A stretch of DNA of 64,000 bases, taken from positions 7,399 through 71,398 of the forward strand of contig CAZACP010000004.1 of NCBI GenBank assembly GCA_964483665.1, written 5' to 3'. The stretch comes from an uncultured Candidatus Saccharibacteria bacterium. Its GTDB lineage: Bacteria; Patescibacteriota; Doudnabacteria; UBA920. The notes beneath the pieces are model-generated. The model saw only the letters and a list, made by a program, of their open reading frames with translations, made no database searches and had not been told where the DNA came from. A program made the position numbers and the translations under genes. Of this stretch, positions 975 to 63,138 are shown one piece after another. Each line of letters begins with the position of its first letter. Positions within the stretch are counted from its first letter, which is position 1.

Positions 975-1004
975 AGATATAATAATACAATAAAAACCGC
1001 CCTT

Positions 1005-1045
1005 GTTCCAGCCCGCAGGCCGGAATCAAGGGCATAGTCTACACG
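1005..1045. repeat. Terminator-like hairpin element (AAAAACCGCCC...TCAAGGGC); related copy at 1505-1550
   Basis: Inverted repeat gcccttg...caagggc with a nested GC palindrome. It lies downstream of minus ORF 1057..1443. Confidence 0.45.
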
Positions 1046-1056
1046 TCAAGAATCCT

Positions 1057-1443
1057 TTAGTCGTCTTCGGATTCGGGTATTAACTCAAATGTCGTATACG
1101 CGCCCTGGCCGCGAATTGCGGGTCGGTTGATCATTAGATACTTTTGTTCTTTGAACCCGTACCTAACTACCAGCACCACTCTTGTAAACCGAAGCGCTCC
1201 TATGGGTGGCTTCTCCGCGTCAACCTCTATTCCTATTGGGTAGGCGTTGACGAGATCGTTTGCTATGGCATACCCACACCAGCTCGTAAGAGCAAGGTTA
1301 TACTGGTTCATCAGGTTTGAAATTCGTGAAATCGCTCCAAACAAATCACTAGTCACCCACATAGTAAAAGCGGCCAAGCCGATACCCAAGACAGTGAACA
1401 AAACCGCGAGCATAAAGGTCGAAACAGACATCATGGAATCCAT
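1057..1443 (-). CDS. Hypothetical small membrane protein (GC-rich orphan ORF)
   Basis: 128-aa ORF with an N-terminal TM helix. The local GC is clearly higher than in the flanks. I recognise no homology. Confidence 0.4.
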   Translation of the reverse strand: MDSMMSVSTFMLAVLFTVLGIGLAAFTMWVTSDLFGAISRISNLMNQYNLALTSWCGYAIANDLVNAYPIGIEVDAEKPPIGALRFTRVVLVVRYGFKEQKYLMINRPAIRGQGAYTTFELIPESEDD

Positions 1444-1504
1444 ATTGCTCCCTCTTGTATCTTTTTTCCCGACTACTCATTTAAGCAGAGAGAGAGAGAG
1501 ATTT

Positions 1505-1550
1505 GTCAATCCAAAAAACCGCCCCTCCGCCAGTTGGCGGATCAAGGGAC
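1505..1550. terminator. Bidirectional rho-independent terminator-like hairpin containing CCGCCAGTTGGCGG palindrome
   Basis: The sequence is aaaaaaccgcccctccgccagttggcggatcaagggacggttttt: a stem with an A-run before it and a T-run after it. It is downstream of the rplJ-rplL unit on the minus strand. Confidence 0.5.
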
Positions 1551-6203: not shown

Positions 6204-6241
6204 CTCTCTCTCCAAGACTTGGAGAGAGCCGGAGAGAGATT
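6204..6241. repeat. Family A palindromic element (CTCTCTCCAAGACTTGGAGAGAG core)
   Basis: It shares its core with the copies at 24627, 45092, 45512 and 63043 and with the intragenic copies. Confidence 0.7.
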
Positions 6242-6353
6242 AATTCGCCTCTGTCATCCCGGCCCCCGACCGCGTCCTCCATAGCTTTATACGAAGGATG
6301 GAGCCGGAATCCAGTAACTCACTTAACAACTATCTCGAGCAACTAATTATAAA

Positions 6354-6392: not shown

Positions 6393-6459
6393 TTGACTAT
6401 TAATAAGTTGATTGCTAAACTCCTTGCATGCTCGCACCTAGCGGGCTGAAGGAGGTTCA

Positions 6460-6846
6460 ATGTTTTGGTTAGTTGCCATGCTCCTAATGGAGAGTCCACC
6501 CAGCTGGAAGGAGCAACCGAAAAATCACTTCGAGCTGGAAAACTCAACCGACAAGTGCTGGGTCGAAGTGAAGGACTCCAGTTTGGTAGGACGAGTCATG
6601 CATTTGAAAGAAGGTGACGTAGAATATTGGCACTACGTCATTATCTCGGGTTCAAAGCTCAGTCACGAGAACTGGCTTATGAACCCCAAAAGCGGTTTAA
6701 CCTACCAATACGGCGCCGGTGAGCCTTTTCGCAGATGGGCGTTTCAGCAGTTATGCGGCAGGCATCTACGCATGCTGCCAAAAGAAATACAGAAAAGGTT
6801 TAAGAAAGTTGGGTACAAATCCCAACGCCCTCCGCCCCATCCCTAG
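6460..6846 (+). CDS. Hypothetical protein (GC-rich orphan ORF)
   Basis: 128 aa with a strong RBS (gaaggagg 6 nt before the ATG). There is a possible promoter TTGACT-N17-TAAACT at 6392-6420. The local GC is elevated. Confidence 0.45.
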   Translation: MFWLVAMLLMESPPSWKEQPKNHFELENSTDKCWVEVKDSSLVGRVMHLKEGDVEYWHYVIISGSKLSHENWLMNPKSGLTYQYGAGEPFRRWAFQQLCGRHLRMLPKEIQKRFKKVGYKSQRPPPHP

Positions 6847-6924
6847 TCCGTCACACGACGACAACATAAGGCATTAGCTAATTTGGACTGTACATCCAAA
6901 AAGCTAATGCCTTTGCTTTTTTGA

Positions 6925-6960
6925 TTCGCACCCTATTGCACTACTGTACTAGTACGATGA
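6925..6960. repeat. Family E element (GCACTACTGTACTAGTAC palindrome core)
   Basis: It matches the repeats at 12631-12665 and 13570-13627. Confidence 0.6.
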
Positions 6961-6970
6961 AACAAAAAAA

Positions 6971-7856: not shown

Positions 7857-7931
7857 TGGGGTGTCGCCAAGTGGTAAGGCAGCGCCCTTTGGAGGCGCCA
7901 TTCGTAGGTTCGAATCCTACCACCCCAGCCA
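7857..7931 (+). tRNA. tRNA-Gln (anticodon UUG)
   Basis: Cloverleaf with acceptor stem TGGGGTG/CACCCCA, a 3-bp D stem GCC...GGC, anticodon stem GCGCC/GGCGC with loop CTTTGGA, T arm GTAGG-TTCGAAT-CCTAC, discriminator G and encoded CCA. A TATAAT box sits at 7828-7833. Confidence 0.85.
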
Positions 7932-8025
7932 CGAAAAATGACTTTGTCATCTCGTGGCAGGCCAGCATACGCTTTTGGTATGATGATCTGCTATGAGAAA
8001 ATGATGAGGTCATTTTTCGTGAGCC
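7931..8025. repeat. 95-bp element bounded by perfect 13-bp inverted repeats CACGAAAAATGAC / GTCATTTTTCGTG, immediately 3' of tRNA-Gln
   Basis: The terminal inverted repeats are read directly from the sequence, and the internal sequence is unique. It lies at the tRNA / GIY-YIG junction. Confidence 0.5.
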
Positions 8026-8083
8026 CCGAGATTATCCACCCATGGTGGAGAATTTTTCGGGGCCACGGTATAATATAACTATG

Positions 8084-8341
8084 CATTATGTATATTTATT
8101 GGAATCCCAACAAGATAAATCATGGTATATAGGCCAAACGGATGACTTAAAAGCAAGAGTAGCCAGGCACAATGCGGGTAATGGAGCCAGAACCACCAGC
8201 CTTAAAACAAATTGGGAACTTATATACTATGAAGCCTATAAGACTAAGGCAGACGCCTTGGGTAGAGAGAAATTTTTGAAAAGTGGATCTGGCTACAAGT
8301 ATTTAAAAAAACAGTTAAAAAATTATTTAGAAATCAAATAA
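8084..8341 (+). CDS. GIY-YIG nuclease family protein (UPF0213/YhbQ-like, about 85 aa)
   Basis: MHYVYLLESQQDKSWYIGQTDDLKARVARHNAG...WELIYYEAYKTKADALGREKFLKSGSG. A TATAAT box is at 8069-8074. The start is moved to 8084 from the ORF-track start of 8042. Confidence 0.8.
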   Translation, partial: HYVYLLESQQDKSWYIGQTDDLKARVARHNAGNGARTTSLKTNWELIYYEAYKTKADALGREKFLKSGSGYKYLKKQLKNYLEIK

Positions 8342-8426
8342 TATAAGCAATAAACGGGTATGGGTCCCGCAAGGAACCAGCTGGCGTGGGGCTTTGTGTT
8401 TATAAAATTAATTTAACAAAAAAATT

Positions 8427-8678
8427 ATGGCTAATTCCTTAATACTAAACATATCTAAAAATCCTTCGTATACAACCCAGTCGTTACAAAACCCGGCAGC
8501 AAGTTATGACAAAACATTAGACTATTTGAATATTGCTTTGGCAGTAGCCGTAGCAATCGTTATATTTTTAATAATGCGTTTTATATTGCTTTGGTACTGG
8601 AAAATCAATGAAATTGTTAGTTTATTAACAGATATTAGAAATAACACCAATAAAAATGAACAAAAAACACAGTCTTAG
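8427..8678 (+). CDS. Hypothetical small membrane protein
   Basis: 83 aa with a single TM helix (LNIALAVAVAIVIFLIMRFILLWYW). Confidence 0.4.
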   Translation: MANSLILNISKNPSYTTQSLQNPAASYDKTLDYLNIALAVAVAIVIFLIMRFILLWYWKINEIVSLLTDIRNNTNKNEQKTQS

Positions 8679-8692
8679 GCTGTGTTTTTTTA
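8664..8692 (+). terminator. Rho-independent terminator
   Basis: acacag-tcttagg-ctgtgt followed by ttttttt. The stop codon lies in the loop. Confidence 0.55.
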
Positions 8693-8744
8693 AATTGACT
8701 TTATTTATGCAAAGTTTTAAACTAGTAGTGTAATTTATTTAGAT

Positions 8745-9410
8745 ATGAAACTAGAAAAAATCGTTATTGAATTAAGGTACAAAGATATAAACCCAATTTT
8801 TAATTGGAGGTCTTCTTTGTTTAAAGCATTAACAGGGACCAGGCCAACACAGGATGTTAGTTTAAATGAAGGTTTCGAATTAAAAATAGAAGATAAAAAA
8901 GCTTTACTGATTTTAGAACAAAGGAGGTGGGCTGTTGCTGTCGAAAATACAAGCAATGTTGAAGATGTTAAAAAATTTTTATACGAGCTATTTACTAAGA
9001 TTCATTCCGTAATTAACTGGGGTACAGGTTGTAGAATCGGTGTAAGAACAGTCTGGGTAAAAGAGTATGTTGGAACTCTGGAAAATCTAGTAAATAAAAT
9101 AAAAGAAGAAGTTTACAAAAACATTCCTATAGTTGATTCAGCTAAGGATATTGCTTTAAACTTGAGCCTTTCAAATCGTGAACATAAGGTAAATTATATT
9201 TTGGGACCAATGGAAAAGAAAGAGCCTACACACCAATATTTTCAAAATAAATCATTCGAAGAATTACCAAACGTATTTTTACTGCTTGACTTAGACTATT
9301 TTTTTGTTAAAAACCAAATTTATACCAAAAAATACTTTAAAGAGTTCGTCGAGGAAGCTATGAATTTTGCCTTGATTAAATCAAATGAAAGTGAGGGTTT
9401 GATTTTATGA
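8745..9410 (+). CDS. Hypothetical soluble protein (first gene of a 4-gene coupled cluster)
   Basis: 221 aa with no motif I recognise. Its stop overlaps the next start (ATGA at 9407-9410). Confidence 0.55.
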   Translation: MKLEKIVIELRYKDINPIFNWRSSLFKALTGTRPTQDVSLNEGFELKIEDKKALLILEQRRWAVAVENTSNVEDVKKFLYELFTKIHSVINWGTGCRIGVRTVWVKEYVGTLENLVNKIKEEVYKNIPIVDSAKDIALNLSLSNREHKVNYILGPMEKKEPTHQYFQNKSFEELPNVFLLLDLDYFFVKNQIYTKKYFKEFVEEAMNFALIKSNESEGLIL

Positions 9411-9730
9411 CAATGTATGGAACAACAACTTTTGAAGATTCTTTTATGGGTAGTACAGGAACCTCGCTCAAACTCCCAAAGAGAAAACAGTTCCAAGTTA
9501 AGAGTATAGATTTAGCTCTTAGATCAAGCAAAAGGGCATCCATAAGACCTTTGATAATTTTTAATTATTCAATGGTTGTTTTTTCAGTGTTCTTTGCAGT
9601 TGAATTTATTTTAGTTTTTTTTAGTAAAAGCATTATAAACGGATTTGTATCACTAAGCGCTTTAACAACAAGCTTGGGTTTATTTTGGGTTTTCAGAACT
9701 CTTCAAGCTGACTATGAAAAAAATGCGTAA
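9407..9730 (+). CDS. Hypothetical two-TM membrane protein
   Basis: 107 aa with overlapping, translationally coupled starts. Confidence 0.5.
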   Translation: MTMYGTTTFEDSFMGSTGTSLKLPKRKQFQVKSIDLALRSSKRASIRPLIIFNYSMVVFSVFFAVEFILVFFSKSIINGFVSLSALTTSLGLFWVFRTLQADYEKNA

Positions 9731-10028
9731 TTGGATTCCTAAAATTATTCGCGAATCAATTAAAGTGGAAAAAGAGACAAAGTACGGGCAGATGAATCAA
9801 AAGGCCGTATCGGCTGTAATTGTAGTTGTAATTATTTCATTAGTAGCTGGAATAACTTTCTCGTACACACCACTAAAAAACATAAATCCTCTAAATGGAT
9901 TTTCTTTTGCTTTAAATAGCGGAACACCATACGTGCTGGTAGCAATAATCCTAGTTTCAGCTTTTGTCTGTATGGGATTTCTTATGTACTGTAAAAATAA
10001 AGGTTGGATTAGCTCAAAAGATTTTTAG
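9714..10028 (+). CDS. Hypothetical two-TM membrane protein
   Basis: 104 aa overlapping the previous ORF by 17 nt. Confidence 0.5.
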   Translation: MKKMRNWIPKIIRESIKVEKETKYGQMNQKAVSAVIVVVIISLVAGITFSYTPLKNINPLNGFSFALNSGTPYVLVAIILVSAFVCMGFLMYCKNKGWISSKDF

Positions 10029-10060
10029 AATTAACAAGGATAAGAAAGTAAAGTGTTCTT

Positions 10061-10303
10061 ATGCAAAAATATTATATTGCTATTATAATAATTTTACTCC
10101 TTGGTTCTTTTTATTGGTTTGAATATAGACCAAATAAGATTAGAAAAGATTGTTTTGTCGTTGCCAAAGATTATAAAAATTCCATTACTAGGACTGAAAG
10201 TGATTTAATAATGGAAGGGTTTACAATAACTAAAAGAGCTGACTATGAGAAATTATTTGATGATAAATTTAAGGAATGTAAACTAGAACACGGGATTCAA
10301 TAA
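10061..10303 (+). CDS. Hypothetical single-TM membrane protein
   Basis: 80 aa with an N-terminal TM helix. Confidence 0.45.
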   Translation: MQKYYIAIIIILLLGSFYWFEYRPNKIRKDCFVVAKDYKNSITRTESDLIMEGFTITKRADYEKLFDDKFKECKLEHGIQ

Positions 10304-10397
10304 ATTATAAACCTTAAAAAGAACCATACTTTGACTAAAAATCATCAAAATAAAGGTGATTTTTTGTTTTATTTAAGAGGAATTTCATACATAGTAA

Positions 10398-10428
10398 TTG
10401 ACAAATAAGGCTAAATATGATATAATAT
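10398..10428 (+). promoter_or_regulatory. Consensus sigma-70 promoter TTGACA-N17-TATAAT
   Basis: ttgaca aataaggctaaatatga tataat. It drives the GC-rich ORF that starts at 10542. Confidence 0.55.
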
Positions 10429-10541
10429 TATGGTTATATAGACATTTTGTGGCACTTCTACCGGAGAGGGTTAATAAATCTTTTGCGGTGGGAGCGATAC
10501 AAAGTCCCAAAAATCAAAAACCATTCTATAGGAGAGATCCA

Positions 10542-10838
10542 ATGATCTATACGCCCCGTAGTGAAAGCACGAATCAGACTTGCACGATCATCAGATTCCG
10601 TGGCTTTATAATTTCTATTGCCATGGACGACCGTTCTCGTGGGGGCACAACTCCACTTACCCGATCTTCTCTGGCAGTCATCGAAGGCAAGGAGATCGTC
10701 ACGCACAGATTTGCAGGTCGTCATAACACCAATGACGGCTACATCGAAGAAGTGGAAGGCGAAACGCTGTTTGAAATTATGGCAGCGATTGCCGCAGTGA
10801 CGCAGCCCGAATCGGAGTTGGTCGCCAAGACTTCGTAA
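10542..10838 (+). CDS. Hypothetical protein (GC-rich orphan ORF, about 55% GC)
   Basis: RBS aggaga 7 nt before an ATG at 10542. The ORF-track start at 10398 coincides with the promoter -35 box, so I trimmed it. A hairpin gggcaag...cttgccc at 10886-10908 follows the gene. Confidence 0.4.
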   Translation: MIYTPRSESTNQTCTIIRFRGFIISIAMDDRSRGGTTPLTRSSLAVIEGKEIVTHRFAGRHNTNDGYIEEVEGETLFEIMAAIAAVTQPESELVAKTS

Positions 10839-11100
10839 AGAAATACAATCAGGCGTATCGCACATAAATCCAGTGACGAACTGGTGGGCAAGATGAACTT
10901 CTTGCCCCTTTACCTTAATTCATTAATAATTGTGGTTTGAGGTAAAGTTTTAAGCAAAACTGTTCCAACTTCGTCAAACAAGGCCAGCCAAAGAAAAGAC
11001 AGTAATCAATGATTGCAGTCTTTTCTTTGTTTATGACCGACTTGTACTTAAGCCTTGCTTTTAGAGCAATATTTTTTTGCCATATGTTATAATTAACACT

Positions 11101-12198
11101 ATGAAAAAACATCAAATAGCCATTTTTTTATTTATTGTCCAAGGAATTTTGTTTCTTGGGCACTATTTTGTTTATAAAATTTTTACTTTGGTTTTTGGCA
11201 TAACTTCCCCACAAAGCCTGTTTTGGACACGGCTAATATTTTTTATTATGTCCGTAAGCTTTCTTTTTGCAACGCTTTTTAATTACAAATTCTACGGCTT
11301 CTTTGGCCGCTTTATATATAGAACTGCGGCTATTTCACTTGGAACCTTTTATTGGCTATTTTTTGCCGCTTTATTAAGCGGAGCCCTTTATATATTAAAC
11401 CTAAGCTTAGCGCCTGTTTTAAGCCAAATTTTAATGTTTAGCGCGGTTTTAGTAAGCCTATACGGCATTATAAATAGCCACAATACCAAAATCACCCAAA
11501 TAAAGGTAACTTTGCCAAACTTGCCTAAAACCTGGTTAAATAAAAAAGCTGTATTGGTGGCAGACACGCACTTTGGCAGTTACTGGAATATAAATTTTGC
11601 CAAAAAAATAGTTAGGCTGATACAAAAACAAAATCCGGATATAGTATTTTTTTCCGGCGACTTTTTCGACGGTCCGCCGGCTTACTTTGACCGTTTAGCC
11701 AAACCCTTTGCGGAATTAAAAATAAAAAACGGCATCTGGTTTGCCCCGGGAAACCACGAGGAATTTTCCGACCCCAAACCTTTTTTTGACGCACTAAATA
11801 AAGCCGGAATAAAAGTTTTAAACAACGAACTTGTAGAAATAGAAGGCGTGCAAATAATTGGCGTGGGTTTTGGCGCGGCTCATAGAGCTGAGCAGGAAAT
11901 GGGCGTGCTGGAAAATTTAAAGATTGATAAAATAAAGCCAAGCATTCTAATTAAGCACGAACCCTCGCATATTAATGTAGCCGAAAAATTCAATATTTCC
12001 CTACAGCTTTCAGGCCATACGCACTCAGGCCAAGTCTGGCCGCTTAACTACATTACCAAAAAAGTTTACGGCAAATTCCACACGGGGCTTAACAATTTAG
12101 GCCAAACTCAAGTATATACAACCACCGGCGCAGGCTCCTGGGGCCCGCCCCAAAGAATTGGCAACCGCCCGGAAATTGTGATAATTAATTTTAAATAA
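11101..12198 (+). CDS. Membrane-anchored metallophosphoesterase (calcineurin-like)
   Basis: N-terminal TM helices, then the motifs LVADTHFG, FFSGDFFDG and GNHE. The start is moved to 11101 because a TATAAT box at 11085-11090 overlaps the ORF-track start. Confidence 0.75.
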   Translation: MKKHQIAIFLFIVQGILFLGHYFVYKIFTLVFGITSPQSLFWTRLIFFIMSVSFLFATLFNYKFYGFFGRFIYRTAAISLGTFYWLFFAALLSGALYILNLSLAPVLSQILMFSAVLVSLYGIINSHNTKITQIKVTLPNLPKTWLNKKAVLVADTHFGSYWNINFAKKIVRLIQKQNPDIVFFSGDFFDGPPAYFDRLAKPFAELKIKNGIWFAPGNHEEFSDPKPFFDALNKAGIKVLNNELVEIEGVQIIGVGFGAAHRAEQEMGVLENLKIDKIKPSILIKHEPSHINVAEKFNISLQLSGHTHSGQVWPLNYITKKVYGKFHTGLNNLGQTQVYTTTGAGSWGPPQRIGNRPEIVIINFK

Positions 12199-12199
12199 C

Positions 12200-12628
12200 A
12201 TGGAAAGATTTAAAATTATCCCAACTGTGCATTTATTTTTAATAAAGGATGAAAAAATCCTCTTACTTAAACGAGCCAATACGGGTTACGAAGATGGTAG
12301 TTATAGCGTTCCGGCCGGGCATTTAGACGGAAATGAAACCGCTAGCTCCGGCATGCTGCGTGAAGCCAAAGAAGAAATTTGCGTTATTATTCAAGAAAAA
12401 AATATAAAATTAGTTCATTTAATGCACAGAAAAAACGAAAGAGAACAATTAGATTTATTCTTTTTATGTAAAAATTGGTTTGGGGAACCAAAAATTGGGG
12501 AACCTGATAAATGCAGCGAACTAAAATGGTTCGAGTTAAATAAATTACCTTCAAATACTATTCCTTACATACAAAAAGCTATTTACAATTATCAAAAGAG
12601 TGTTATTTATTCCGAATTCGGCTGGTAG
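12200..12628 (+). CDS. NUDIX hydrolase
   Basis: Nudix box GHLDGNETASSGMLREAKEEICV. Confidence 0.8.
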   Translation: MERFKIIPTVHLFLIKDEKILLLKRANTGYEDGSYSVPAGHLDGNETASSGMLREAKEEICVIIQEKNIKLVHLMHRKNEREQLDLFFLCKNWFGEPKIGEPDKCSELKWFELNKLPSNTIPYIQKAIYNYQKSVIYSEFGW

Positions 12629-12630
12629 CT

Positions 12631-12665
12631 TTCGCCTGGCCATTTGCATTAGCGTACTAGTACGC
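12631..12665. repeat. Family E element (TTCGCCTGGCC...GCGTACTAGTACGC)
   Basis: A direct-repeat partner is at 13570-13627. Confidence 0.6.
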
Positions 12666-12675
12666 TTATAAAGTT

Positions 12676-13548
12676 ATGACTGAAACAAAAAAAGGCGAGA
12701 TTTATATTTTTTTAGAAACCCTGCTTTGGGCGCTTTTCCCAGTTATTACTCTGCTAAGCTTTTCGAGCTTAAAACCTTTAGCTTCATTAGCTTTAAGCAC
12801 GCTAAGCGCCTCTGTATTCTTTGGGTTTGTTATAACCAAAAAGAAACTCTGGAAAGAAGTTTTCAGCAAAACCGCCAGAAAAGAAATACTGCTCGGCACT
12901 TTGTTTGTCGGGGTAATTTTTTATTTGTTGCAATTTTTCGGCATAAGCCATACCACAGCCGGCAACGCGGCATTAATTTCGCAAATGGAAATATTTTTCA
13001 GTTTTTTAGTTTTTAATGTATATAAAAAAGAATATTTCGATACAAGCCACATTTTTGGAGCTCTGTTAATGCTTTTAGGAGCCTTAATTATACTATTGCC
13101 TAAAAGTTCGCAAATAAACCCGGGCGATATTTTTATTTTGCTTTCAACTGTTGCGGCCCCATTAGGCAATGTCTTTCAACAAAAAGCCATGAAAAAGGTC
13201 AGTAGCTTTAACATTATGTTTTGGCGAAACACCCTAAGCTTTCCTATATTTTTTTTGTTGATGTTTATTTATGGCCAAAACTTTTCTGGTGCGGATTTGC
13301 AAAAAAGTTTGTGGCTTGTAATATTTAGCGGCGTATTTTTGTTCGGTATTTCCAAAATTCTTTGGCTGGAAGCTATACATAGAATACCGGTTGTAAAAGC
13401 CAACGCGCTTAACTGCATAGGGCCTTTATTCACCATAATTTTCGCTTATTTTTTACTCAAACAATCCCCTACCATTTGGCAGCTTTTAGCGGTTTTGCCT
13501 TTAAGTCTAGGGATACTAATTCTCACCAAGCCTTCAAAAAAACATTAA
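12676..13548 (+). CDS. EamA/DMT-family membrane transporter
   Basis: 290 aa with about 10 TM helices in two similar halves. Confidence 0.6.
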   Translation: MTETKKGEIYIFLETLLWALFPVITLLSFSSLKPLASLALSTLSASVFFGFVITKKKLWKEVFSKTARKEILLGTLFVGVIFYLLQFFGISHTTAGNAALISQMEIFFSFLVFNVYKKEYFDTSHIFGALLMLLGALIILLPKSSQINPGDIFILLSTVAAPLGNVFQQKAMKKVSSFNIMFWRNTLSFPIFFLLMFIYGQNFSGADLQKSLWLVIFSGVFLFGISKILWLEAIHRIPVVKANALNCIGPLFTIIFAYFLLKQSPTIWQLLAVLPLSLGILILTKPSKKH

Positions 13549-19091: not shown

Positions 19092-19871
19092 TCAGTCTTT
19101 TGGATTGAACGGGGCCAAAAACGCGGCAAGCTGTTCAAGCTTCCTAGCCAGTACAATATTCTCACCTTGAAGCCTGACGATGGCAGCCTGGTTTTCTTCT
19201 CTCTCACGCCGAAGAGCATCTAGAAACCCAGGTAAGGTCTCTGAAAGCTGGGTCAACAACCTAAGAAAGGCATTGACCTGAGGCGCTTCAAAACATTCGA
19301 CAGAGCCTGAATTCGCACGTTTTTTCCCCCGAAGAGACTGTTTGACAACACCCCTGTTTTTACAGAATTGGTAATAGTAGGTCGAAACCCCACTGTACGT
19401 TGCCCCAGTAAACCCATTTGAGATGGCAAGCATAACAAGCCTGTTAATCTCTGGGGGTGATTCCGCGTCTGGATTGCCGTTTTGGTACACAAACGCTTTC
19501 AGCGTTAGTCTGACTCCATTTCCCACACCGGGTGGCTGAACCGGCTTTACTGCAAGGGGCTCGGGTTCGGCCAAACCCAAGACCCTATGTAGCTTCGTCT
19601 CAAAATCGTTCTGCGCTTCAACCTTCACATACACGCAGCCTTCAATCTCGCCCGCACCTTTTATGACCAAAGCGGTCGCGTTCTCTCTAATTGCAGATTC
19701 GCAGCACAGAACGTGGGTTGTGTTCGAAGGAAACCGGAAAGGGTTTCTTATATCTGCTGTCAAAACTACACCAATTCTCGTGTCATCTGTGACCAGTAGA
19801 GCCAACTCGTTGCTAGCCGTAGTGATGTTAAAACCCACCAACCAGATGCTTGCCCCACTCCCTTTCTCCAT
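19092..19871 (-). CDS. Hypothetical protein (GC-rich orphan ORF, about 50% GC)
   Basis: 259 aa. The C-terminal 60 aa form a heptad leucine zipper ending LEQLAAFLAP. Confidence 0.4.
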   Translation of the reverse strand: MEKGSGASIWLVGFNITTASNELALLVTDDTRIGVVLTADIRNPFRFPSNTTHVLCCESAIRENATALVIKGAGEIEGCVYVKVEAQNDFETKLHRVLGLAEPEPLAVKPVQPPGVGNGVRLTLKAFVYQNGNPDAESPPEINRLVMLAISNGFTGATYSGVSTYYYQFCKNRGVVKQSLRGKKRANSGSVECFEAPQVNAFLRLLTQLSETLPGFLDALRREREENQAAIVRLQGENIVLARKLEQLAAFLAPFNPKD

Positions 19872-20087
19872 GTGTATGCCCGCCTTTCGCTCAAAATCTC
19901 CGGGAAGTTTAACTAATTTTCATTAATCTTCCTCCCTGGAATATGTTTGTAATTCTACATTAAAAAAAGCCCTATTTCAAGGCTTAAAATATACCTAGCA
20001 AGCTAAACTGAATAGTGAACAAAAACAAATAGATTCCGGATAAATTTAACAGCAAAATAAATTTTCCGGAATGACATACTAAAAAAA

Positions 20088-22179: not shown

Positions 22180-23853
22180 TTACTCCAAAGGCAACGAAAA
22201 ATAAAAAGTGCTACCCAAATTTTCACCCGGGCTTTCCGCCCAAACTTGGCCGCCATGGGATTCCACAATGCCTTTTGTAACAACCAAACCAAGTCCGGTG
22301 CCTTTACGACTCCTGTCGCCGCTTTTAAGCTGTTTAAATTTCGAAAACAACACGGGCAAATCTTCCGGCGAAATGCCTATACCGGTGTCTTTAACCCCCA
22401 CGACAACGCGCTTTTTTTCCGGCTCGGTATTTACGTTAACGACTATTTCGCCCGTGTCCGAATATTTTATTGCGTTGCTAATTAAATTGCCTAACACCTG
22501 AGCCACCCTAACTCTGTCAAATTTGCACTTAAATTTTTCAGGCGAAGTGAACTTTATAGACAAATGTTTGGCTTCGGCCTGGGGTTTAAATGCGTCCACC
22601 TGCTGTTTTAACACTTCGACCAAATCATACTCCTGGGCATTTAACTCAAACTTCCCGGCTTCTATTTTTGCCACGTCAAGCAGGTCGTTAACCAACTCCA
22701 GCATATTGTTAGAAGCCGTTTCTATGGTTAAGAAGGTATCTTTTACCTTGGTTTGGTCGGTACCTTGAGCCGCGGCCAAAGTTTTTATCATTGATTCGCT
22801 TGACCAACGAACCGCGGTCAAAGGAGCCCTAAGCTCGTGCACCATCATGGCGGTAAATTCCTGACGCAATTTTTCCAAAGATTTTTCCGTGGTAATGTCG
22901 TGAAAAACCACGTTGGTGCCTATTTTTTCACCTGCATCGGTTTTAACCGGCGTAATGGTAATTTCTAAAGCTTTGTTTTTCAACACTACATCCGGCACAA
23001 AAACAGTTTTGTCTTCACTCAGTGCCTGGTCTATTTTAGTTCTCAAGTCCGTCTTGCCGGCAAGCGCGTCAACTATGTCGAACATCGTTAAAGCCTGACC
23101 CGGCTTAAGGCCCGTAATTTCTAAAATTTCCTTTACCGAATGATTAGCAATTAACAATTGGTGGTTTAAGTCCACGTTAATTATACCGTCGGCAATTGAG
23201 TCAATAACTGCTTCTAACTTCCCTTTTTCGCTATGCAAAACGGCCTGCAGTTTAGTAACCGCGGTTGCTGCCTGGTTGGTAATAGCATACAAAATAGATG
23301 CCTGTTCGTCGCCATAACGGCCCGCTTCCGAAGAAGCCACGTTTATAAGGCCGATTAACTTTTCTCCAATAACCACAGGTAAGTTGAAATAAGATTTTAC
23401 ATTTACGTTTATATTGTCGTCTAAAATATTTCCGGTTACGCTTTCATCAACTTTTTGAGGCTTTATATCCTCGTTTAAAATAGCCGCAAAAGCCTGGAGC
23501 ATTTTTTCTTTTACTTCCGAAATAAACTCGTGGTTAACCGTATTTTCTACATGGCATTTAAACACCACTTTATGGTCGTCGGTTAAAACCATATACGAAA
23601 CTGTGTCGTACTCCAGCAAATTACCAAGCGAATTGGTAATAATTTCCACCACTTTGTTGGTGTCTAAGCTATAGCCAATACGTTCGCTTATTTCTTTTAA
23701 CACCTGGGCTTGATAGACTTTTTGTTGCAGCTGCAGGCTCTGGCTTAAGCGTTTTCTTAAAACATTACGCTCTTTTAAAGAGCGAAAAACATACCATGTT
23801 ACAACAATGGCAAGGATAATAAAATCTACTACTAATAAAATATTGATGATCAT
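22180..23853 (-). CDS. Sensor histidine kinase (TM, GAF/PAS-like, HisKA, HATPase)
   Basis: H-box MMVHELRAPLTAV, N-box LISNAIKYS and G-boxes VKDTGIGI and GTGLGLVVTKGIV. Confidence 0.85.
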   Translation of the reverse strand: MIINILLVVDFIILAIVVTWYVFRSLKERNVLRKRLSQSLQLQQKVYQAQVLKEISERIGYSLDTNKVVEIITNSLGNLLEYDTVSYMVLTDDHKVVFKCHVENTVNHEFISEVKEKMLQAFAAILNEDIKPQKVDESVTGNILDDNINVNVKSYFNLPVVIGEKLIGLINVASSEAGRYGDEQASILYAITNQAATAVTKLQAVLHSEKGKLEAVIDSIADGIINVDLNHQLLIANHSVKEILEITGLKPGQALTMFDIVDALAGKTDLRTKIDQALSEDKTVFVPDVVLKNKALEITITPVKTDAGEKIGTNVVFHDITTEKSLEKLRQEFTAMMVHELRAPLTAVRWSSESMIKTLAAAQGTDQTKVKDTFLTIETASNNMLELVNDLLDVAKIEAGKFELNAQEYDLVEVLKQQVDAFKPQAEAKHLSIKFTSPEKFKCKFDRVRVAQVLGNLISNAIKYSDTGEIVVNVNTEPEKKRVVVGVKDTGIGISPEDLPVLFSKFKQLKSGDRSRKGTGLGLVVTKGIVESHGGQVWAESPGENLGSTFYFSLPLE

Positions 23854-24035: not shown

Positions 24036-24314
24036 TTAAAACCGAACAGCCTTTAGCTCCAATATTAATGCATTGTCAATAATAAAATCCACAATATTTC
24101 CTGTGTCCCCGATTATTACTTCTTTCTTATACTTAATACCATTTTCTGAAAATTTTTTCTCTAGCAACTTACTATATTGTTTCTCCTTAGCATATGGACC
24201 TAATTCTTTATAAACTTCAATCAATAAACCGTTTATTTTATAGCTCAAATCCCCGTACAAAAAATCTACCTTCAGTTTCTTCGTTTCTGTAGTTTTCTGT
24301 AGGTTATTACTCAT
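24036..24314 (-). CDS. GxxExxY family protein (PD-(D/E)XK-like), C-terminally truncated paralogue
   Basis: FLYGDLSYKINGLLIEVYKELGPYAKEKQYSKLLEKKF is about 60% identical to the 39534..39923 protein, but it stops at LKAVRF and lacks the last 35 aa. Confidence 0.65.
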   Translation of the reverse strand: MSNNLQKTTETKKLKVDFLYGDLSYKINGLLIEVYKELGPYAKEKQYSKLLEKKFSENGIKYKKEVIIGDTGNIVDFIIDNALILELKAVRF

Positions 24315-24626: not shown

Positions 24627-24670
24627 TTCCCTCTCCAAGACTTGGAGAGGGTTAGGGAAAGGTTGATGAT
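24627..24670. repeat. Family A element (CCCTCTCCAAGACTTGGAGAGGG TTAGGGAAAGGTTG)
   Basis: Matches the cores at 63043 and 6204. Confidence 0.7.
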
Positions 24671-24763
24671 TTGTAAACTGAGGTAAGTTAACTTATTATA
24701 CCATAAAAAATACAAACACGCCTCTTAAGAGAAAACTCCACTGAGGCGTGCTTAGCAAAAATT

Positions 24764-25429
24764 TCAGCTTTGGAACGCGAGCCGTGCCCGCATGATCAAC
24801 TGTTTTTGAACCGCGGGAAAACCTTTCAACTCAGACAGGCGCATACTCACCGCACCACCCATAAGAATTTGGACTTTCAACTCATGGGGCTTATAAGGCA
24901 CTGAGTCGCGTGTTTGAAACTGAGCTATCTTGAGGTCAAAGGTTGGGCCGATCACATTCGAAACCTTACGCTGCGGTTCGTAGTAGACCACACCAAGGCC
25001 CAATCGACCTGAAAAAACCTTGGTACAGCCTTTGCCCCTAAGCATGTTGTTGAAACTTCGACCGTTCGTCCACGACCATGCACTGTAACAACGGACGGGG
25101 CTGTTTTCAGGCCAATCTCTAGGCTGAATTTGCCCGGGCCCTTCCACCATGAGGCAAGTGTGGAAAGCGTAGCCTGATCCGTCGATCGGTCTTAGTTGTC
25201 CCGCTTCAAGAAGAATCTCGGTTTGCTCCCACTTGGCAGCCATTTGCGACAACCAAGACAGCGAGAACATCTCGGGAGCAAACCGTGGCACGTAGGTGGT
25301 ATTTCCCGGCGAAAAATTATTCCAACCAGTTCCGGGTTTCCCAACCTGATACTTGTAACAATCATCCTCGAAGCGAAACCCGTAGCAAGGCACCAAAAAG
25401 CTGTTGTCGTTCTTTTCAACGTCTTTCAC
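24764..25429 (-). CDS. Hypothetical protein (GC-rich orphan ORF; GTG start)
   Basis: 221 aa, Trp/Gly-rich, with elevated GC and no match I recognise. Confidence 0.4.
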   Translation of the reverse strand: MKDVEKNDNSFLVPCYGFRFEDDCYKYQVGKPGTGWNNFSPGNTTYVPRFAPEMFSLSWLSQMAAKWEQTEILLEAGQLRPIDGSGYAFHTCLMVEGPGQIQPRDWPENSPVRCYSAWSWTNGRSFNNMLRGKGCTKVFSGRLGLGVVYYEPQRKVSNVIGPTFDLKIAQFQTRDSVPYKPHELKVQILMGGAVSMRLSELKGFPAVQKQLIMRARLAFQS

Positions 25430-27204: not shown

Positions 27205-27471
27205 TCACGGCGCGTCTTTCCTAGACGGTCCAATTACCATTATTGCCCTTGCCGGTAAAAGCGGTTGAAAGTTTAATCTCGCGAGTGGATGAATAATAAA
27301 TATGTCAGGGGGGTCATCAATCAAAAAGTCTCTTACGACCCTTAATTGATTAATATGGGCAACCCAAATCACTTGATGGCATTTAATATCATTCACTGAT
27401 TGGACAAGAGCGTCTCTCCTGTCATAACCAAAAAACCCAACCTTCAATGGCTCTTTATGAGAATGCCACAT
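27205..27471 (-). CDS. Hypothetical small protein (GC-rich)
   Basis: RBS aaggagaagg before MWHSHKEP. The start is trimmed from 27537. Confidence 0.35.
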   Translation of the reverse strand: MWHSHKEPLKVGFFGYDRRDALVQSVNDIKCHQVIWVAHINQLRVVRDFLIDDPPDIFIIHPLARLNFQPLLPARAIMVIGPSRKDAP

Positions 27472-27720
27472 TTTTTCCTTCTCCTTGTTGTACGATACAA
27501 AACCCGTCCCAAAGAATAACAAAAAAGTTATTCTCAAGGACGGGTTGATGAAGTTTCATCAGTTTGCCGCGGTACCACCTTGCTTTCCTAAAACTTAGGA
27601 CTCTTTTTACCGGATTTTACGGCTCGGGCAACCGTGCGGGATATTCCCCCGCCAGCGTTTTGGTGTGCGAAACCAAATCTTTAACTGCTTTATACTATTA
27701 TTCCGCCAAAGGCGGATCCG
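27472..27720 (-). promoter_or_regulatory. Putative structured 5' leader with terminator/attenuator hairpin (riboswitch-like arrangement, class unknown)
   Basis: On the minus strand the hairpin is cccgtccttgagaataac-tttttt-gttattctttgggacggg followed by ttttg, 25 nt before the RBS. The GC-rich upstream segment has several short hairpins. Confidence 0.3.
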
Positions 27721-33749: not shown

Positions 33750-33830
33750 GTAGTTGGTAGTTGGTAGTTGGTAGTTGGTAGCCCAAATTGCTCCGGCTAC
33801 TTACTACTTTACTACCTACTACTTACTAAA
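33750..33830. repeat. Family D element: (TAGTTGG)4 array - spacer - (CTACTTA)n array
   Basis: Read directly from the sequence. The second copy is at 62515-62590. Confidence 0.65.
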
Positions 33831-62510: not shown

Positions 62511-62514
62511 TATG

Positions 62515-62590
62515 TAGTTGGTAGTTGGTAGTTGATAGTTGGTAGCCGAACATTGCCTGACTACTTACTACTTACTACTTCACTAATCGC
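62515..62590. repeat. Family D element (TAGTTGG array - spacer - CTACTTA array)
   Basis: It overlaps the last 8 codons of rplO. Confidence 0.65.
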
Positions 62591-63042: not shown

Positions 63043-63138
63043 TCCCTCTCCAAGACTTGGAGAGGGTTAGGGAGAGGTTGAAAATTATTAACCTCTCTGT
63101 CACCTTTCGGGTGACATCTCCCCAAGCTTTCGGGAGAA
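63043..63138. repeat. Family A composite element in the rpsE-rplO spacer (where rpmD/L30 would normally be)
   Basis: ccctctccaagacttggagaggg ttag ggagaggttg..aacctctct gtcacctttcgggtgac atctcccc.. Confidence 0.7.

What the first reader, a model, noticed from the sequence alone, without database searches (positions are those of the whole stretch)
1057..1443. Six GC-rich orphan ORFs scattered in an AT-rich genome
ORFs at 1057-1443, 6460-6846, 10542-10838, 19092-19871, 24764-25429 and 27205-27471 are visibly GC-enriched, at roughly 50-55% against a background of about 35-40%. None has a motif I recognise. Several carry strong RBSs or consensus promoters and their own terminators. This pattern is typical of recently acquired DNA. 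In GC-rich DNA long ORFs also arise by chance on both strands, so the strand and reality of each one needs checking.
Basis: seen in the sequence. Interest (0 to 1): 0.55.

Follow-up and report, generated by a model that had tools for sequence, protein, structure and literature searches.

The report
GC-rich accessory gene cassettes, CPR bacterium
Five of the six flagged ORFs are real, strain- or species-restricted single-gene cassettes of foreign composition in a conserved Candidatus Doudnabacteria chromosome; one has a promoter repeat that changes length between populations and one is a locus with very divergent alleles, but the general pattern is ordinary.

Summary
The window is a chromosome of a CPR bacterium (Candidatus Doudnabacteria), 39.4% GC.

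- **Composition.** Five of the six ORFs (c1 1057-1443, c2 6460-6846, c3 10542-10838, c4 19092-19871, c5 24764-25429) are GC-enriched: 47.5-50.9% GC and GC3 51-60%, against native GC3 of 38.6±5.3%. The sixth (c6, 27205-27471) is not: 41.6% GC, with native codon usage.
- **Coding.** All six are on the stated strands, and the annotated frame is the best of the six frames. Each of the five has its own promoter-like site, Shine-Dalgarno sequence (weak for c4, which follows a short upstream ORF with a strong one) and terminator.
- **Distribution.** They sit in variable slots of a backbone that is syntenic across about 70 related genomes, and they are absent from nearly all of those genomes.
- **Family size.** The three families searched (c3, c4, c5) have 2-5 members among billions of proteins. 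None of the five matches Pfam, PHROGs, NCBIfam, PADLOC, or (c2, c4, c5) PDB sequences.
- **Best reading.** These are horizontally exchanged accessory cassettes that evolve faster than core genes.

The c1 promoter spacer holds a (CT)n tract with n = 5, 6 or 7 in 12 otherwise near-identical contigs, which makes it a candidate phase-variable promoter. c4 is one locus with alleles only 20-31% identical between strains of about 96% nucleotide identity, and every allele is GC-rich. Protein functions remain unknown.

The parts
1057..1443 (-). c1: 128-aa ORF with an N-terminal hydrophobic helix (about residues 9-30) and a ~90-aa C-terminal part. It lies in a 508-bp insertion (1005-1512) relative to sister L081.
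   Evidence: GC 47.5%, GC3 54%. Annotated frame is the best of six. Present in same-species strains L120, L121 and L123 but absent from L081. dN/dS 0.22 against L120. No family hits.
1479..1509 (-). c1 promoter: -35 TTGACA (1504-1509), a spacer containing (CT)7 (1487-1500 on the + strand as (AG)7), and TGn-TTAAAT (1479-1487). Spacer length is 19 nt here and 17 or 15 nt in other contigs. A Shine-Dalgarno AGAGGGAG lies at 1448-1455.
   Evidence: Read from the sequence. n = 7 in 5 contigs, 6 in 6 and 5 in 1, among 12 contigs otherwise almost identical over about 780 nt. It is the longest dinucleotide repeat in the window.
995..1035 (-). Terminator hairpin after c1. Its outer stem duplicates that of the rplL terminator at 1515-1557, which is single-copy in L081.
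   Evidence: Sequence comparison and folds; alignment to L081.
6460..6846 (+). c2: 128-aa ORF with a promoter-like site at 6393-6421, Shine-Dalgarno GAAGGAGG just upstream, and a terminator hairpin at about 6868-6923.
   Evidence: GC 49.1%, GC3 60%. Promoter scan and sequence. Window 6432-6968 is replaced by an unrelated 720 bp in L081. dN/dS 0.19-0.24. IMG's 'frataxin-like CyaY' label for the cluster is not reproduced by Pfam or NCBIfam.
10542..10838 (+). c3: 98-aa ORF with a perfect TTGACA-17-TATAAT promoter at 10398-10426, Shine-Dalgarno AGGAGAG at 10530-10536 and a terminator at 10886-10907. It sits at the right end of a strain-specific block (7941-11081) next to tRNA-Gln.
   Evidence: Homologues P0036-P0038 are 60-69% identical and share the conserved N-terminus MIYTPRS. 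The forward frame is 64-67% conserved against 36-44% for the reverse frame. The block is absent from L081 and from same-species L120 and L121.
19092..19871 (-). c4: 259-aa ORF. The model shows an N-terminal alpha/beta domain (8-100), a Pro-rich linker, a three-helix unit (124-172) and a long C-terminal helix (197-255). It is the polymorphic allele of a fixed spoU-mraZ locus.
   Evidence: Family limited to P0032, P0033 (= L008), P0035 (= L042) and the L125 allele. AlphaFold2 pLDDT 75. Flanks align to L008 and L125 right up to the ORF ends.
19909..19980 (-). c4 control region: promoter TTGAAA-17-TAGAAT (19980-19952), strong Shine-Dalgarno GGGAGGAAG (19928-19936) and a 4-codon upstream ORF MKIS* (19909-19923). 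The terminator is at 19074-19049.
   Evidence: The promoter, Shine-Dalgarno and upstream-ORF start are conserved in L125 and L008 and roughly in L042.
24764..25429 (-). c5: 221-aa ORF (GTG start) with promoter TTGACC-17-TATAAA (25533-25505) and a terminator hairpin at about 24705-24750.
   Evidence: GC 50.9%, GC3 57%; sequence. Absent from all ~70 sister loci. The only relatives are its own cluster and P0031 (42% identity, collinear). dN/dS 0.70 against L125, but variable residues avoid positions shared with P0031.
27205..27537 (-). c6: 88-110-aa ORF. It is not GC-rich, has native-like codon usage and is lineage-restricted. It is not part of the GC-rich set.
   Evidence: GC 41.6%, GC3 38%. Codon usage ranks 3rd of 52 under the host model. 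Homologues in L008 (59%) and L066 (50%).

Best explanation
Five of the six ORFs (c1-c5) are real protein-coding accessory genes. Each is a self-contained cassette of promoter, ribosome-binding site, ORF and terminator. Each sits in an intergenic slot of an otherwise conserved, syntenic Candidatus Doudnabacteria (CPR/Patescibacteria) chromosome.

The cassettes were gained or swapped by horizontal exchange and recombination, not inherited with the core genome. This step is inferred from patchy distribution and foreign composition. They evolve faster than core genes.

Two cassettes show features typical of genes involved in conflict or interaction:
- c1 encodes a small membrane-anchored protein. 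Its promoter spacer contains a (CT)n tract that changes the -35/-10 spacing between 15, 17 and 19 nt. This is a candidate slipped-strand phase-variable promoter.
- c4 is a fixed locus. A conserved promoter, leader ORF and terminator bracket deeply divergent alleles with a hypervariable N-terminal domain and a more conserved helical C-terminal part.

The most likely role of the set is strain-level variation in interaction with hosts, phages or competitors. That role is inference only, and no biochemical function could be assigned. The sixth ORF (c6) is an ordinary lineage-restricted small gene.
For: **Organism and backbone.** The core genes are mreB, ftsI, mraZ, rsmH, recJ, dnaX, secY and glycolysis genes. 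The histidine kinase has relatives in about 70 Doudnabacteria or Patescibacteria genomes with conserved gene order.

**Composition.** GC z = 2.0-2.9 and GC3 z = 2.3-3.9. Synonymous codon log-likelihood is -1.82 to -1.96 bits per codon under the host model, against -1.46 to -1.56 for native genes, and no sister genome's model fits well.

**Coding evidence.**
- The annotated frame is the best of six for all ORFs.
- c3 has homologues at 60-69% identity, and the forward frame is better conserved than the reverse.
- c4 has collinear homologues.
- c5 has a 42%-identical collinear homologue with strong motifs. Its within-species variable residues avoid conserved positions: 4 of 91 against 22 of 123, p = 0.003.
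- c1 and c2 have dN/dS of 0.19-0.24.

**Accessory status.**
- c1 is an insertion relative to L081, and the c2 slot is replaced there.
- The c3 block differs even between strains that are about 97-99.7% identical in the neighbouring 6-7 kb.
- c5 is absent from every sister locus, and the spoU-mraZ spacer is only about 300 bp in most sisters.

**c1 repeat.** n = 5, 6 or 7 in 12 contigs that are otherwise near-identical.

**c4 alleles.**
- The flanks are 96.7% and 98.5% identical to strain L125 right up to the ORF ends, yet the proteins are 20% (N-terminal part) and 31% (C-terminal part) identical.
- The L125 and L008 alleles are mosaic: 27% in the N-terminal part and 76% in the C-terminal part.

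**Independent assemblies.** ENA, JGI, Logan and NCBI assemblies carry the same ORFs in the same flanks, which rules out assembly chimeras.
Against: - No donor lineage was identified.
- No integrase, transposase or other mobility gene adjoins c1, c2, c4 or c5.
- No relatives were found in IMG/VR, although that scan only detects fairly close relatives.
- c4 homologues are GC-rich in three different AT-rich hosts and always in the same slot. This fits a long-resident gene with intrinsic composition at least as well as repeated import.
- The differences in c2 against strain L121 are all in its 3' half and terminator, at the edge of a replaced segment. They mark a recombination junction, not c2-specific selection.
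- c5 has dN/dS of 0.70 (8 synonymous and 20 nonsynonymous differences), close to neutral, so it could be decaying.
- Expression, translation and the effect of (CT)n on transcription are untested. The -10 element TTAAAT is imperfect.
- No function was found. The AlphaFold2 model of c5 failed (pLDDT 32), and the c4 fold searches gave only generic matches.
Confidence: 0.65

Rival explanations
1. The ORFs are native, vertically inherited genes that evolve very fast. Their GC-richness is an intrinsic property maintained by selection or a local mutational bias, and it is not a mark of foreign origin. Absence from most relatives reflects repeated loss.
For: c4 homologues occupy the same spoU-mraZ slot in three lineages (histidine kinase identity 93% and 67% to the window) behind a conserved promoter and leader. 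All are 10-15 GC points above their hosts. GC-rich Doudnabacteria genomes (48-52% GC) have no c4 homologue in that slot, so no GC-rich donor is evident. The c3 homologue in a 41% GC host is also 54% GC.
Against: This reading needs dozens of independent losses across about 55 genomes whose spacer is only about 300 bp. The c3 family sits in unrelated genomic contexts. The c3 block differs between strains about 97-99.7% identical in the neighbouring 6-7 kb. The codon usage of c1-c5 fits no Doudnabacteria model. c1, c2 and c5 have no counterpart at all in genus-level sisters.
Confidence: 0.2
2. The GC-rich stretches are not protein-coding. They are chance ORFs in GC-rich non-coding DNA, such as structured RNA genes or decaying remnants.
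For: GC-rich islands in AT-rich genomes can mark structured RNAs (general knowledge). c5 has dN/dS of 0.70 with substitutions spread evenly over codon positions [10, 9, 9]. Both strands of c3 carry long ORFs. None of the ORFs has a known domain.
Against: Rfam finds only the tRNA at gathering threshold, and nothing credible in the c3 region at E up to 1. Protein-level homologues are collinear over the full length for c3, c4 and c5. The forward frame of c3 is far better conserved than the reverse. c5's variable residues avoid conserved positions. There are no indels or stop codons among c5 variants with 28 substitutions. c1 and c2 have dN/dS of about 0.2. A Shine-Dalgarno sequence lies at the right distance for c1, c2, c3 and c5.
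Confidence: 0.05
3. The cassettes are remnants of prophages or other integrated mobile elements, left behind after the mobility genes decayed.
For: c3 lies at the end of a strain-specific 3.1-kb block directly next to tRNA-Gln. The first ORF of that block has weak GIY-YIG-like hits. A c3 homologue lies on a 54% GC contig (L127) whose five genes all lack Pfam or PHROG matches. Small nuclease-like accessory genes (PDDEXK_3, DUF559) occur nearby.
Against: No integrase, terminase, capsid or other phage hallmark appears in or near any slot. No megablast hit was found to phage or plasmid collections for window 1-25000. No IMG/VR relatives were found. c1, c2, c4 and c5 are single genes with clean boundaries in conserved intergenic DNA.
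Confidence: 0.1

Closest known systems
ORFan or accessory genes in chromosomal integration hotspots (the flexible genome between conserved core genes), as described for many bacteria. Horizontal transfer is already reported for Patescibacteria (PMC12455944).
   Same: Patchy, strain- or species-level presence at fixed positions between syntenic core genes. Atypical base composition and codon usage. Tiny families with no annotated function. One block lies next to a tRNA gene.
   Different: Classic bacterial ORFans are described as short and A+T-rich (my own knowledge of the older literature, not checked here), whereas these are GC-rich in an AT-rich host. They are single genes, each with its own promoter and terminator, and have no adjacent integrase or transposase. 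No donor is known.
Simple-sequence-repeat contingency loci with a repeat in the promoter spacer, such as TA repeats between hifA and hifB in Haemophilus influenzae, or poly-G in the porA promoter of Neisseria meningitidis (general knowledge, not checked here).
   Same: A short tandem repeat lies between the -35 and -10 hexamers. The repeat number differs between otherwise identical sequences in steps of one unit, giving spacers of 15, 17 or 19 nt. The downstream gene encodes a small membrane-anchored protein.
   Different: The effect on expression is untested. The repeat is short (5-7 units). The organism is a CPR bacterium, for which my one library search found only a coding-repeat hypervariable gene in a Gracilibacterium (PMC6851277) and no promoter example.
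Deeply polymorphic allelic loci kept at one chromosomal position between conserved flanks, such as pherotype or immunity-type loci, phage immunity regions and specificity subunits (general knowledge).
   Same: c4 has a conserved promoter, leader and terminator. The coding sequence is replaced cassette-wise. The alleles are too divergent for nucleotide alignment yet homologous as proteins. One domain is hypervariable and one is more conserved, with mosaicism between alleles.
   Different: There is no partner gene (peptide, kinase, toxin or methylase) at the locus and no recognisable domain. Only five sequences are known, so allele frequencies and balancing selection cannot be tested.

Membership tests
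Horizontally acquired accessory genes / genomic islets | Base composition and codon usage deviate from the host core genes | tested here: met
   c1-c5: GC z = 2.0-2.9 and GC3 z = 2.3-3.9. Their codon score lies below every native gene. c6 does not meet this feature.
Horizontally acquired accessory genes / genomic islets | Patchy distribution: absent from close relatives at a conserved syntenic position | tested here: met
Horizontally acquired accessory genes / genomic islets | Identifiable donor, or gene tree incongruent with the species tree | tested here: inconclusive
   No donor was found. The searched families hold 2-5 clusters. No Doudnabacteria codon model fits. c3 homologues lie in unrelated contexts.
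Horizontally acquired accessory genes / genomic islets | Association with mobility genes, tRNA genes or flanking repeats | tested here: inconclusive
   Only c3 lies in a tRNA-Gln-adjacent block. c1 is bracketed by a duplicated terminator stem. No integrase or transposase was found.
SSR-mediated phase-variable promoter (contingency locus) | Tandem repeat located between the -35 and -10 elements of the gene's promoter | tested here: met
   TTGACA-AAT(CT)7GC-TTAAAT, with a TGn extension, lies 35 nt upstream of the c1 start. The -10 element matches the consensus at 4 of 6 positions, so the promoter assignment rests on sequence only.
SSR-mediated phase-variable promoter (contingency locus) | Repeat number varies among otherwise identical genomes | tested here: met
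   n = 7 (5 contigs), 6 (6 contigs) and 5 (1 contig). Apart from the divergent strain L120 and a second indel shared by two contigs, it is the only polymorphism over about 780 nt. It is also one of only two places where the window differs from L121 over 6.9 kb.
SSR-mediated phase-variable promoter (contingency locus) | Expression switches with repeat number | not testable with these tools
   Needs reporter assays or paired metagenome and metatranscriptome reads.
Frataxin / CyaY (the name IMG gives the c2 cluster) | Match to the frataxin/CyaY profile | tested here: not met
   No Pfam family at E up to 1, no NCBIfam family at E up to 0.1, and no PDB sequence at E up to 10.
Structured non-coding RNA | Match to a known RNA family, or conservation without coding signal | tested here: not met
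   Rfam finds only the tRNA and nothing credible at 10300-11100. Protein-level conservation is seen instead.
Prophage-derived genes | Similarity to phage protein families or viral contigs | tested here: not met
   PHROGs gave no hit better than E = 0.096 for c1-c6. IMG/VR scans were negative. The BFVD fold search for c4 was not significant. No phage or plasmid megablast hit for window 1-25000.
Known anti-phage defence systems | Match to a PADLOC model | tested here: not met
   No hits for c1-c6 at E up to 0.1.
Response regulator (receiver domain plus helix-turn-helix), considered for c4 | Receiver domain with conserved acidic pocket and phospho-acceptor Asp | tested here: not met
Integron gene cassette | Promoter-less ORF with an attC site, in an array next to an intI integrase | tested here: not met
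   The cassettes are isolated and carry their own promoters and terminators. No integrase appeared among the neighbours scanned. attC sites were not searched for specifically.

The most novel reading that the evidence does not exclude
The GC-rich cassettes are a contingency or conflict gene set of an ultra-small episymbiotic CPR bacterium, drawn from a compositionally distinct, still unsampled mobile pool.

Under this reading c1 is a phase-variable surface protein switched by a promoter (CT)n tract. c4 is a balanced, trans-species polymorphic specificity locus, with a hypervariable recognition domain on a conserved helical scaffold, that governs host, phage or kin recognition. Its alleles stay GC-rich in AT-rich genomes through a mechanism that is not yet understood.
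Probability: 0.2. Interest if true: 0.65.

Novelty: new member of a known kind. Interest (0 to 1): 0.38.

Why it matters
CPR/Patescibacteria are uncultured, reduced-genome bacteria whose interactions with hosts and phages are largely unknown, and most of their strain-specific genes are unannotated.

This window shows in concrete terms where such genes sit: in single-gene slots within a rigid syntenic backbone. It shows that they are real and fast-evolving.

It also yields two testable leads. One is a candidate promoter-repeat phase switch. The other is a locus with deeply divergent alleles within a species. If confirmed, they would show that population-level variation mechanisms known from pathogens also operate in CPR bacteria.

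The basic observation, compositionally atypical accessory genes, is ordinary.

Tried and rejected
- **Family searches.** Pfam, PHROGs, PADLOC and NCBIfam scans of c1-c6 gave nothing significant. PDB sequence searches of c2, c4, c5 and the c4 profile gave only noise or coiled-coil matches.
- **Mobile-element searches.** Megablast of window 1-25000 against phage and plasmid collections found no match. IMG/VR scans for c1-c5 found no relatives.
- **RNA.** Rfam found only the tRNA.
- **Donor search.** Codon-usage comparison with 52 Doudnabacteria loci found no good fit.
- **Hidden families.** An all-against-all phmmer comparison of 41 rare GC-rich ORFs from sister loci plus c1-c3 found only the c4 family and two unrelated pairs.
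- **c2-specific diversification, rejected.** The differences in c2 against L121 all lie at the edge of a replaced segment.
- **Repeat elements as cassette boundaries, rejected.** The idea was that the palindromic repeat CTCTCCAAGWCTTGGAGAG, or the TGTCATYCCGG...CCGGAAT element, marks cassette borders. They are separate insertions, divided from c2 by conserved sequence, and the association is not statistically convincing.
- **Eukaryotic hit for c4, rejected.** The hit to a 2296-aa eukaryotic leucine-rich-repeat protein (P0034) was judged spurious.
Full report
**What the window is.** The 64-kb window is 39.4% GC. It encodes ordinary bacterial core functions:
- rplJ/rplL and an ECF sigma factor;
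- the mraZ-rsmH-ftsL-like-ftsI block, mreB, dinB, recJ, dnaX and secY;
- GAPDH, PGK, iPGM and transketolase.

A scan of one genome per species with the histidine kinase (22180-23853) returned about 70 loci. Almost all come from genomes labelled Candidatus Doudnabacteria, Patescibacteria, or (as deposited) Saccharibacteria, at 55-93% identity. Gene order around the kinase is conserved in nearly all of them. The window is therefore a chromosome of a CPR bacterium of the Doudnabacteria group. Megablast of window 1-25000 against phage and plasmid collections found nothing.

**The observation.** All six ORFs exist as described.

| ORF | Coordinates | GC | GC3 |
|---|---|---|---|
| c1 | 1057-1443 (-) | 47.5% | 54% |
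| c2 | 6460-6846 (+) | 49.1% | 60% |
| c3 | 10542-10838 (+) | 50.5% | 54.5% |
| c4 | 19092-19871 (-) | 49.5% | 51% |
| c5 | 24764-25429 (-) | 50.9% | 57% |
| c6 | 27205-27471 (-) | 41.6% | 38% |

Forty-two native ORFs of at least 150 aa average 40.0±3.8% GC and 38.6±5.3% GC3. So c1-c5 are the GC-richest ORFs in the window (z = 2.0-3.9), and c6 is not enriched. Core genes such as mreB and pfkB also contain 300-nt stretches above 50% GC.

**Are they genes, and on which strand?** With a codon model trained on native genes, the annotated frame is the best of six for every candidate. The scores of c1-c5 still fall below every native gene, whereas c6 scores like a native gene.

Each of c1-c5 is a stand-alone unit:
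- c3 has a perfect TTGACA-17-TATAAT promoter at 10398-10426, an AGGAG ribosome-binding site and a terminator at 10886-10907.
- c2, c4 and c5 have 9-10 of 12 promoter matches and clear terminator hairpins.
- c1, c2, c3 and c5 have a Shine-Dalgarno sequence at the right distance. c4's own is weak, and it follows a short upstream ORF that has a strong one.

Comparative evidence for coding:
- **c3.** It has three homologues at 60-69% identity with a conserved N-terminus (MIYTPRS), which fixes the 98-aa start. The forward frame is conserved at 64-67%, against 36-44% for the opposite-strand ORF.
- **c4.** It has collinear homologues.
- **c5.** It has one distant homologue (P0031, 42% identity over the full length) with strongly conserved motifs. 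Residues that vary within the species avoid positions shared with P0031: 4 of 91 against 22 of 123, Fisher p = 0.003.
- **c1 and c2.** Against a roughly 97%-identical strain they have dN/dS of 0.19-0.24, compared with 0-0.16 for neighbouring core genes.

Rfam finds only tRNA-Gln. The same ORFs in the same flanks occur in independent ENA, JGI, Logan and NCBI assemblies, so they are not chimeras.

**Where they sit.** Each lies in a variable slot of the syntenic backbone.
- **c1.** Window 1005-1512 is an insertion relative to the sister contig L081. L081 has a single bidirectional terminator after rplL. The window has two copies of that terminator's outer stem, bracketing c1.
- **c2.** Window 6432-6968 is replaced in L081 by an unrelated 720 bp that encodes a membrane protein on the other strand.
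- **c3.** It ends a 3.1-kb block (7941-11081) next to tRNA-Gln. The rest of the block is AT-rich (26-36% GC). The block is missing from L081, and different genes replace it even in same-species strains L120 and L121.
- **c5.** It is absent from all sister loci. The nearest sister (L008) has a different, AT-rich 109-aa ORF in that slot.
- **c4.** Most sisters have only a ~300-bp AT-rich spacer between spoU and mraZ.

Across 65 related loci, 12% of singleton ORFs lie more than 7 GC points above their genome and 12% lie more than 7 points below. For widely conserved ORFs the figures are 1-2%. Compositional oddity in both directions is therefore a general mark of the flexible genes in this clade.

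**Family sizes and function.** The families that were searched are very small:
- c5: its own cluster plus one other, among 5.8 billion proteins.
- c4: its own cluster plus one by word search. An exhaustive HMMER search of 1.84 billion representatives found only three real relatives, all Doudnabacteria.
- c3: its own cluster plus three other clusters.
Their clusters have four members each.

No Pfam, PHROG, PADLOC, NCBIfam or PDB-sequence match was found. IMG's 'frataxin-like' name for the c2 cluster is not reproduced.

The AlphaFold2 model of c5 failed. The c4 model (pLDDT 75) shows a small alpha/beta domain, a Pro-rich linker, a three-helix unit and a long helix. Fold searches gave only generic Rossmann-like and coiled-coil matches. 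Function is unknown.

**c1: a repeat in the promoter.** Upstream of c1 the sequence reads TTGACA-AAT(CT)nGC-TTAAAT, with a TGn extension before the -10 element. This lies 35 nt before the start codon. Among 12 contigs from different samples and assemblers, n is 7 in five, 6 in six and 5 in one, giving spacers of 19, 17 and 15 nt. Apart from the divergent strain L120 and a second indel in two contigs, this is the only polymorphism in about 780 nt. It is also one of only two places where the window differs from strain L121 over 6.9 kb, and it is the longest dinucleotide repeat in the window.

This is the sequence signature of a slipped-strand, phase-variable promoter. The effect on expression is inferred, not shown. 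The c1 product has one N-terminal hydrophobic helix, read directly from the sequence.

**c4: one locus, very different alleles.**
- Against L008 (about 80% nucleotide identity overall), the flanks align at 85% right up to the ORF ends: window 19987-19893, which holds the promoter and a 4-codon upstream ORF with a strong ribosome-binding site, and 19091-18767, which holds the terminator. The ORF itself has no nucleotide similarity and only about 29-31% protein identity.
- In strain L125 the aligned segments are 94-98.5% identical and the immediate flanks are 96.7% and 98.5% identical. The slot nevertheless holds a 271-aa allele that is only 20% (N-terminal domain) and 31% (C-terminal part) identical to the window's.
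- The L125 allele matches L008's at 76% in the C-terminal part but 27% in the N-terminal domain, so the alleles are mosaic.
- A third type lies in the same slot in the more distant L042.
- All alleles are 50-56% GC in hosts of 39-44% GC.
- GC-rich Doudnabacteria genomes lack the gene in this slot.

This is not a simple recent acquisition. It looks like an old, cassette-exchanged polymorphic locus. Why it stays GC-rich is unexplained.

**c5 and c2 in more detail.**
- c5 differs from the L125 allele by 28 substitutions spread evenly over codon positions [10, 9, 9], with no indels. NG86 counts 8 synonymous and 20 nonsynonymous differences, giving dN/dS of 0.70. The neighbouring kinase shows 20 synonymous and 0 nonsynonymous changes. 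Together with the site pattern, this suggests relaxed or diversifying selection on a still-constrained core.
- The c2 differences against L121 all fall in its 3' half and terminator, at the edge of a replaced segment. They mark a recombination junction.
- The region from 6.6 to 13.6 kb is mosaic within the species: identity steps from 99.7% to non-homologous, then 96%, non-homologous, 89%, and a break over the EamA gene (69% to strain L120).

**Origin.** No donor was found.
- The synonymous codon usage of c1-c5 is nearly flat and fits none of 52 Doudnabacteria models well.
- IMG/VR scans found no relatives.
- c3 homologues occur in other genomic contexts. One lies between nusA and an H+-pyrophosphatase gene in a 41% GC genome, where the gene is 54% GC. 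Another lies on a 54% GC contig of entirely unknown genes.
- Horizontal transfer among Patescibacteria, mostly within the group, has been reported (PMC12455944).

**Verdict.** The 'recently acquired' reading is partly right: the genes are accessory and compositionally foreign. However, no donor or mobility signature was found, one locus is an old polymorphism, and one ORF does not belong in the set.

The phenomenon is a known kind, namely flexible-genome ORFans in slots between core genes. Two specific, testable leads come out of it: the c1 promoter repeat and the c4 alleles.

Noticed in passing
window 6208-6226, 24631-24649, 63046-63064: A palindromic repeat with core CTCTCCAAGWCTTGGAGAG, about 45 nt conserved between two of the copies, occurs three times against 0 expected by chance. 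It is found only in this species and in L008. Extra copies near mraZ occur in strains L121, L122 and L125 but not in the window, so its presence varies between strains. Two of the three window copies lie next to the c2 and c5 slots.
   Followed up: partly
window 6252-6310 and 20033-20076: A second small inverted-repeat element, TGTCATYCCGG...CCGGAAT, occurs exactly twice, upstream of c2 and upstream of the c4 promoter. A related copy replaces the window's sequence upstream of c2 in strain L120. It may be a MITE-like element or a terminator.
   Followed up: partly
window 7941-11081: A strain-specific block next to tRNA-Gln (7857-7931) carries six compact AT-rich ORFs on the + strand (8042-10303, 26-36% GC) before c3. 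The first ORF has weak GIY-YIG nuclease-like hits. No integrase was found. Strains L120 and L121 carry DUF2000 and two other genes there instead.
   Followed up: partly
window 33750-33777, 62514-62534, 62560-62580, 32311-32331: Heptamer tandem repeats: GTAGTTG x4 lies immediately 5' of the recJ start and x3 immediately 5' of the secY start (both genes on the - strand). ACTACTT x3 and AAGTTGT x3 lie nearby. Their function is unknown.
   Followed up: no
window 11077-13548: There is a mosaic within the species. The metallophosphatase gene is 89% and the EamA transporter gene 69% identical in nucleotides to strain L120, while the upstream 5 kb is 97% identical. This indicates recombination with divergent lineages.
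   Followed up: no
window 19909-19936: A 4-codon upstream ORF (MKIS*) with a strong Shine-Dalgarno sequence GGGAGGAAG precedes c4, whose own ribosome-binding site is weak. The Shine-Dalgarno and the ATG are conserved in L125 and L008 (where the upstream ORFs are longer) and are fused to the main ORF in L042. This suggests translational coupling.
   Followed up: partly
window 24036-24314; L125 13748-14095: Small nuclease-like accessory genes occur here. A PDDEXK_3 gene is present in only 9 of about 70 related loci, and a DUF559 gene sits in strain L125 where the window has other small ORFs.
   Followed up: no
window 57113-59665: An 850-aa protein has type IV secretion coupling-protein-like (TraG/TrwB) domains, within an otherwise core-gene region.
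   Followed up: no
L009 9014-9538; L014 7376-8439; L042 6894-7907 and other sister loci: Unrelated GC-rich singleton ORFs, 10-12 GC points above their genomes, occupy the slots flanking dinB in several other Doudnabacteria. These slots are therefore recurrent landing places for odd-composition genes.
   Followed up: partly
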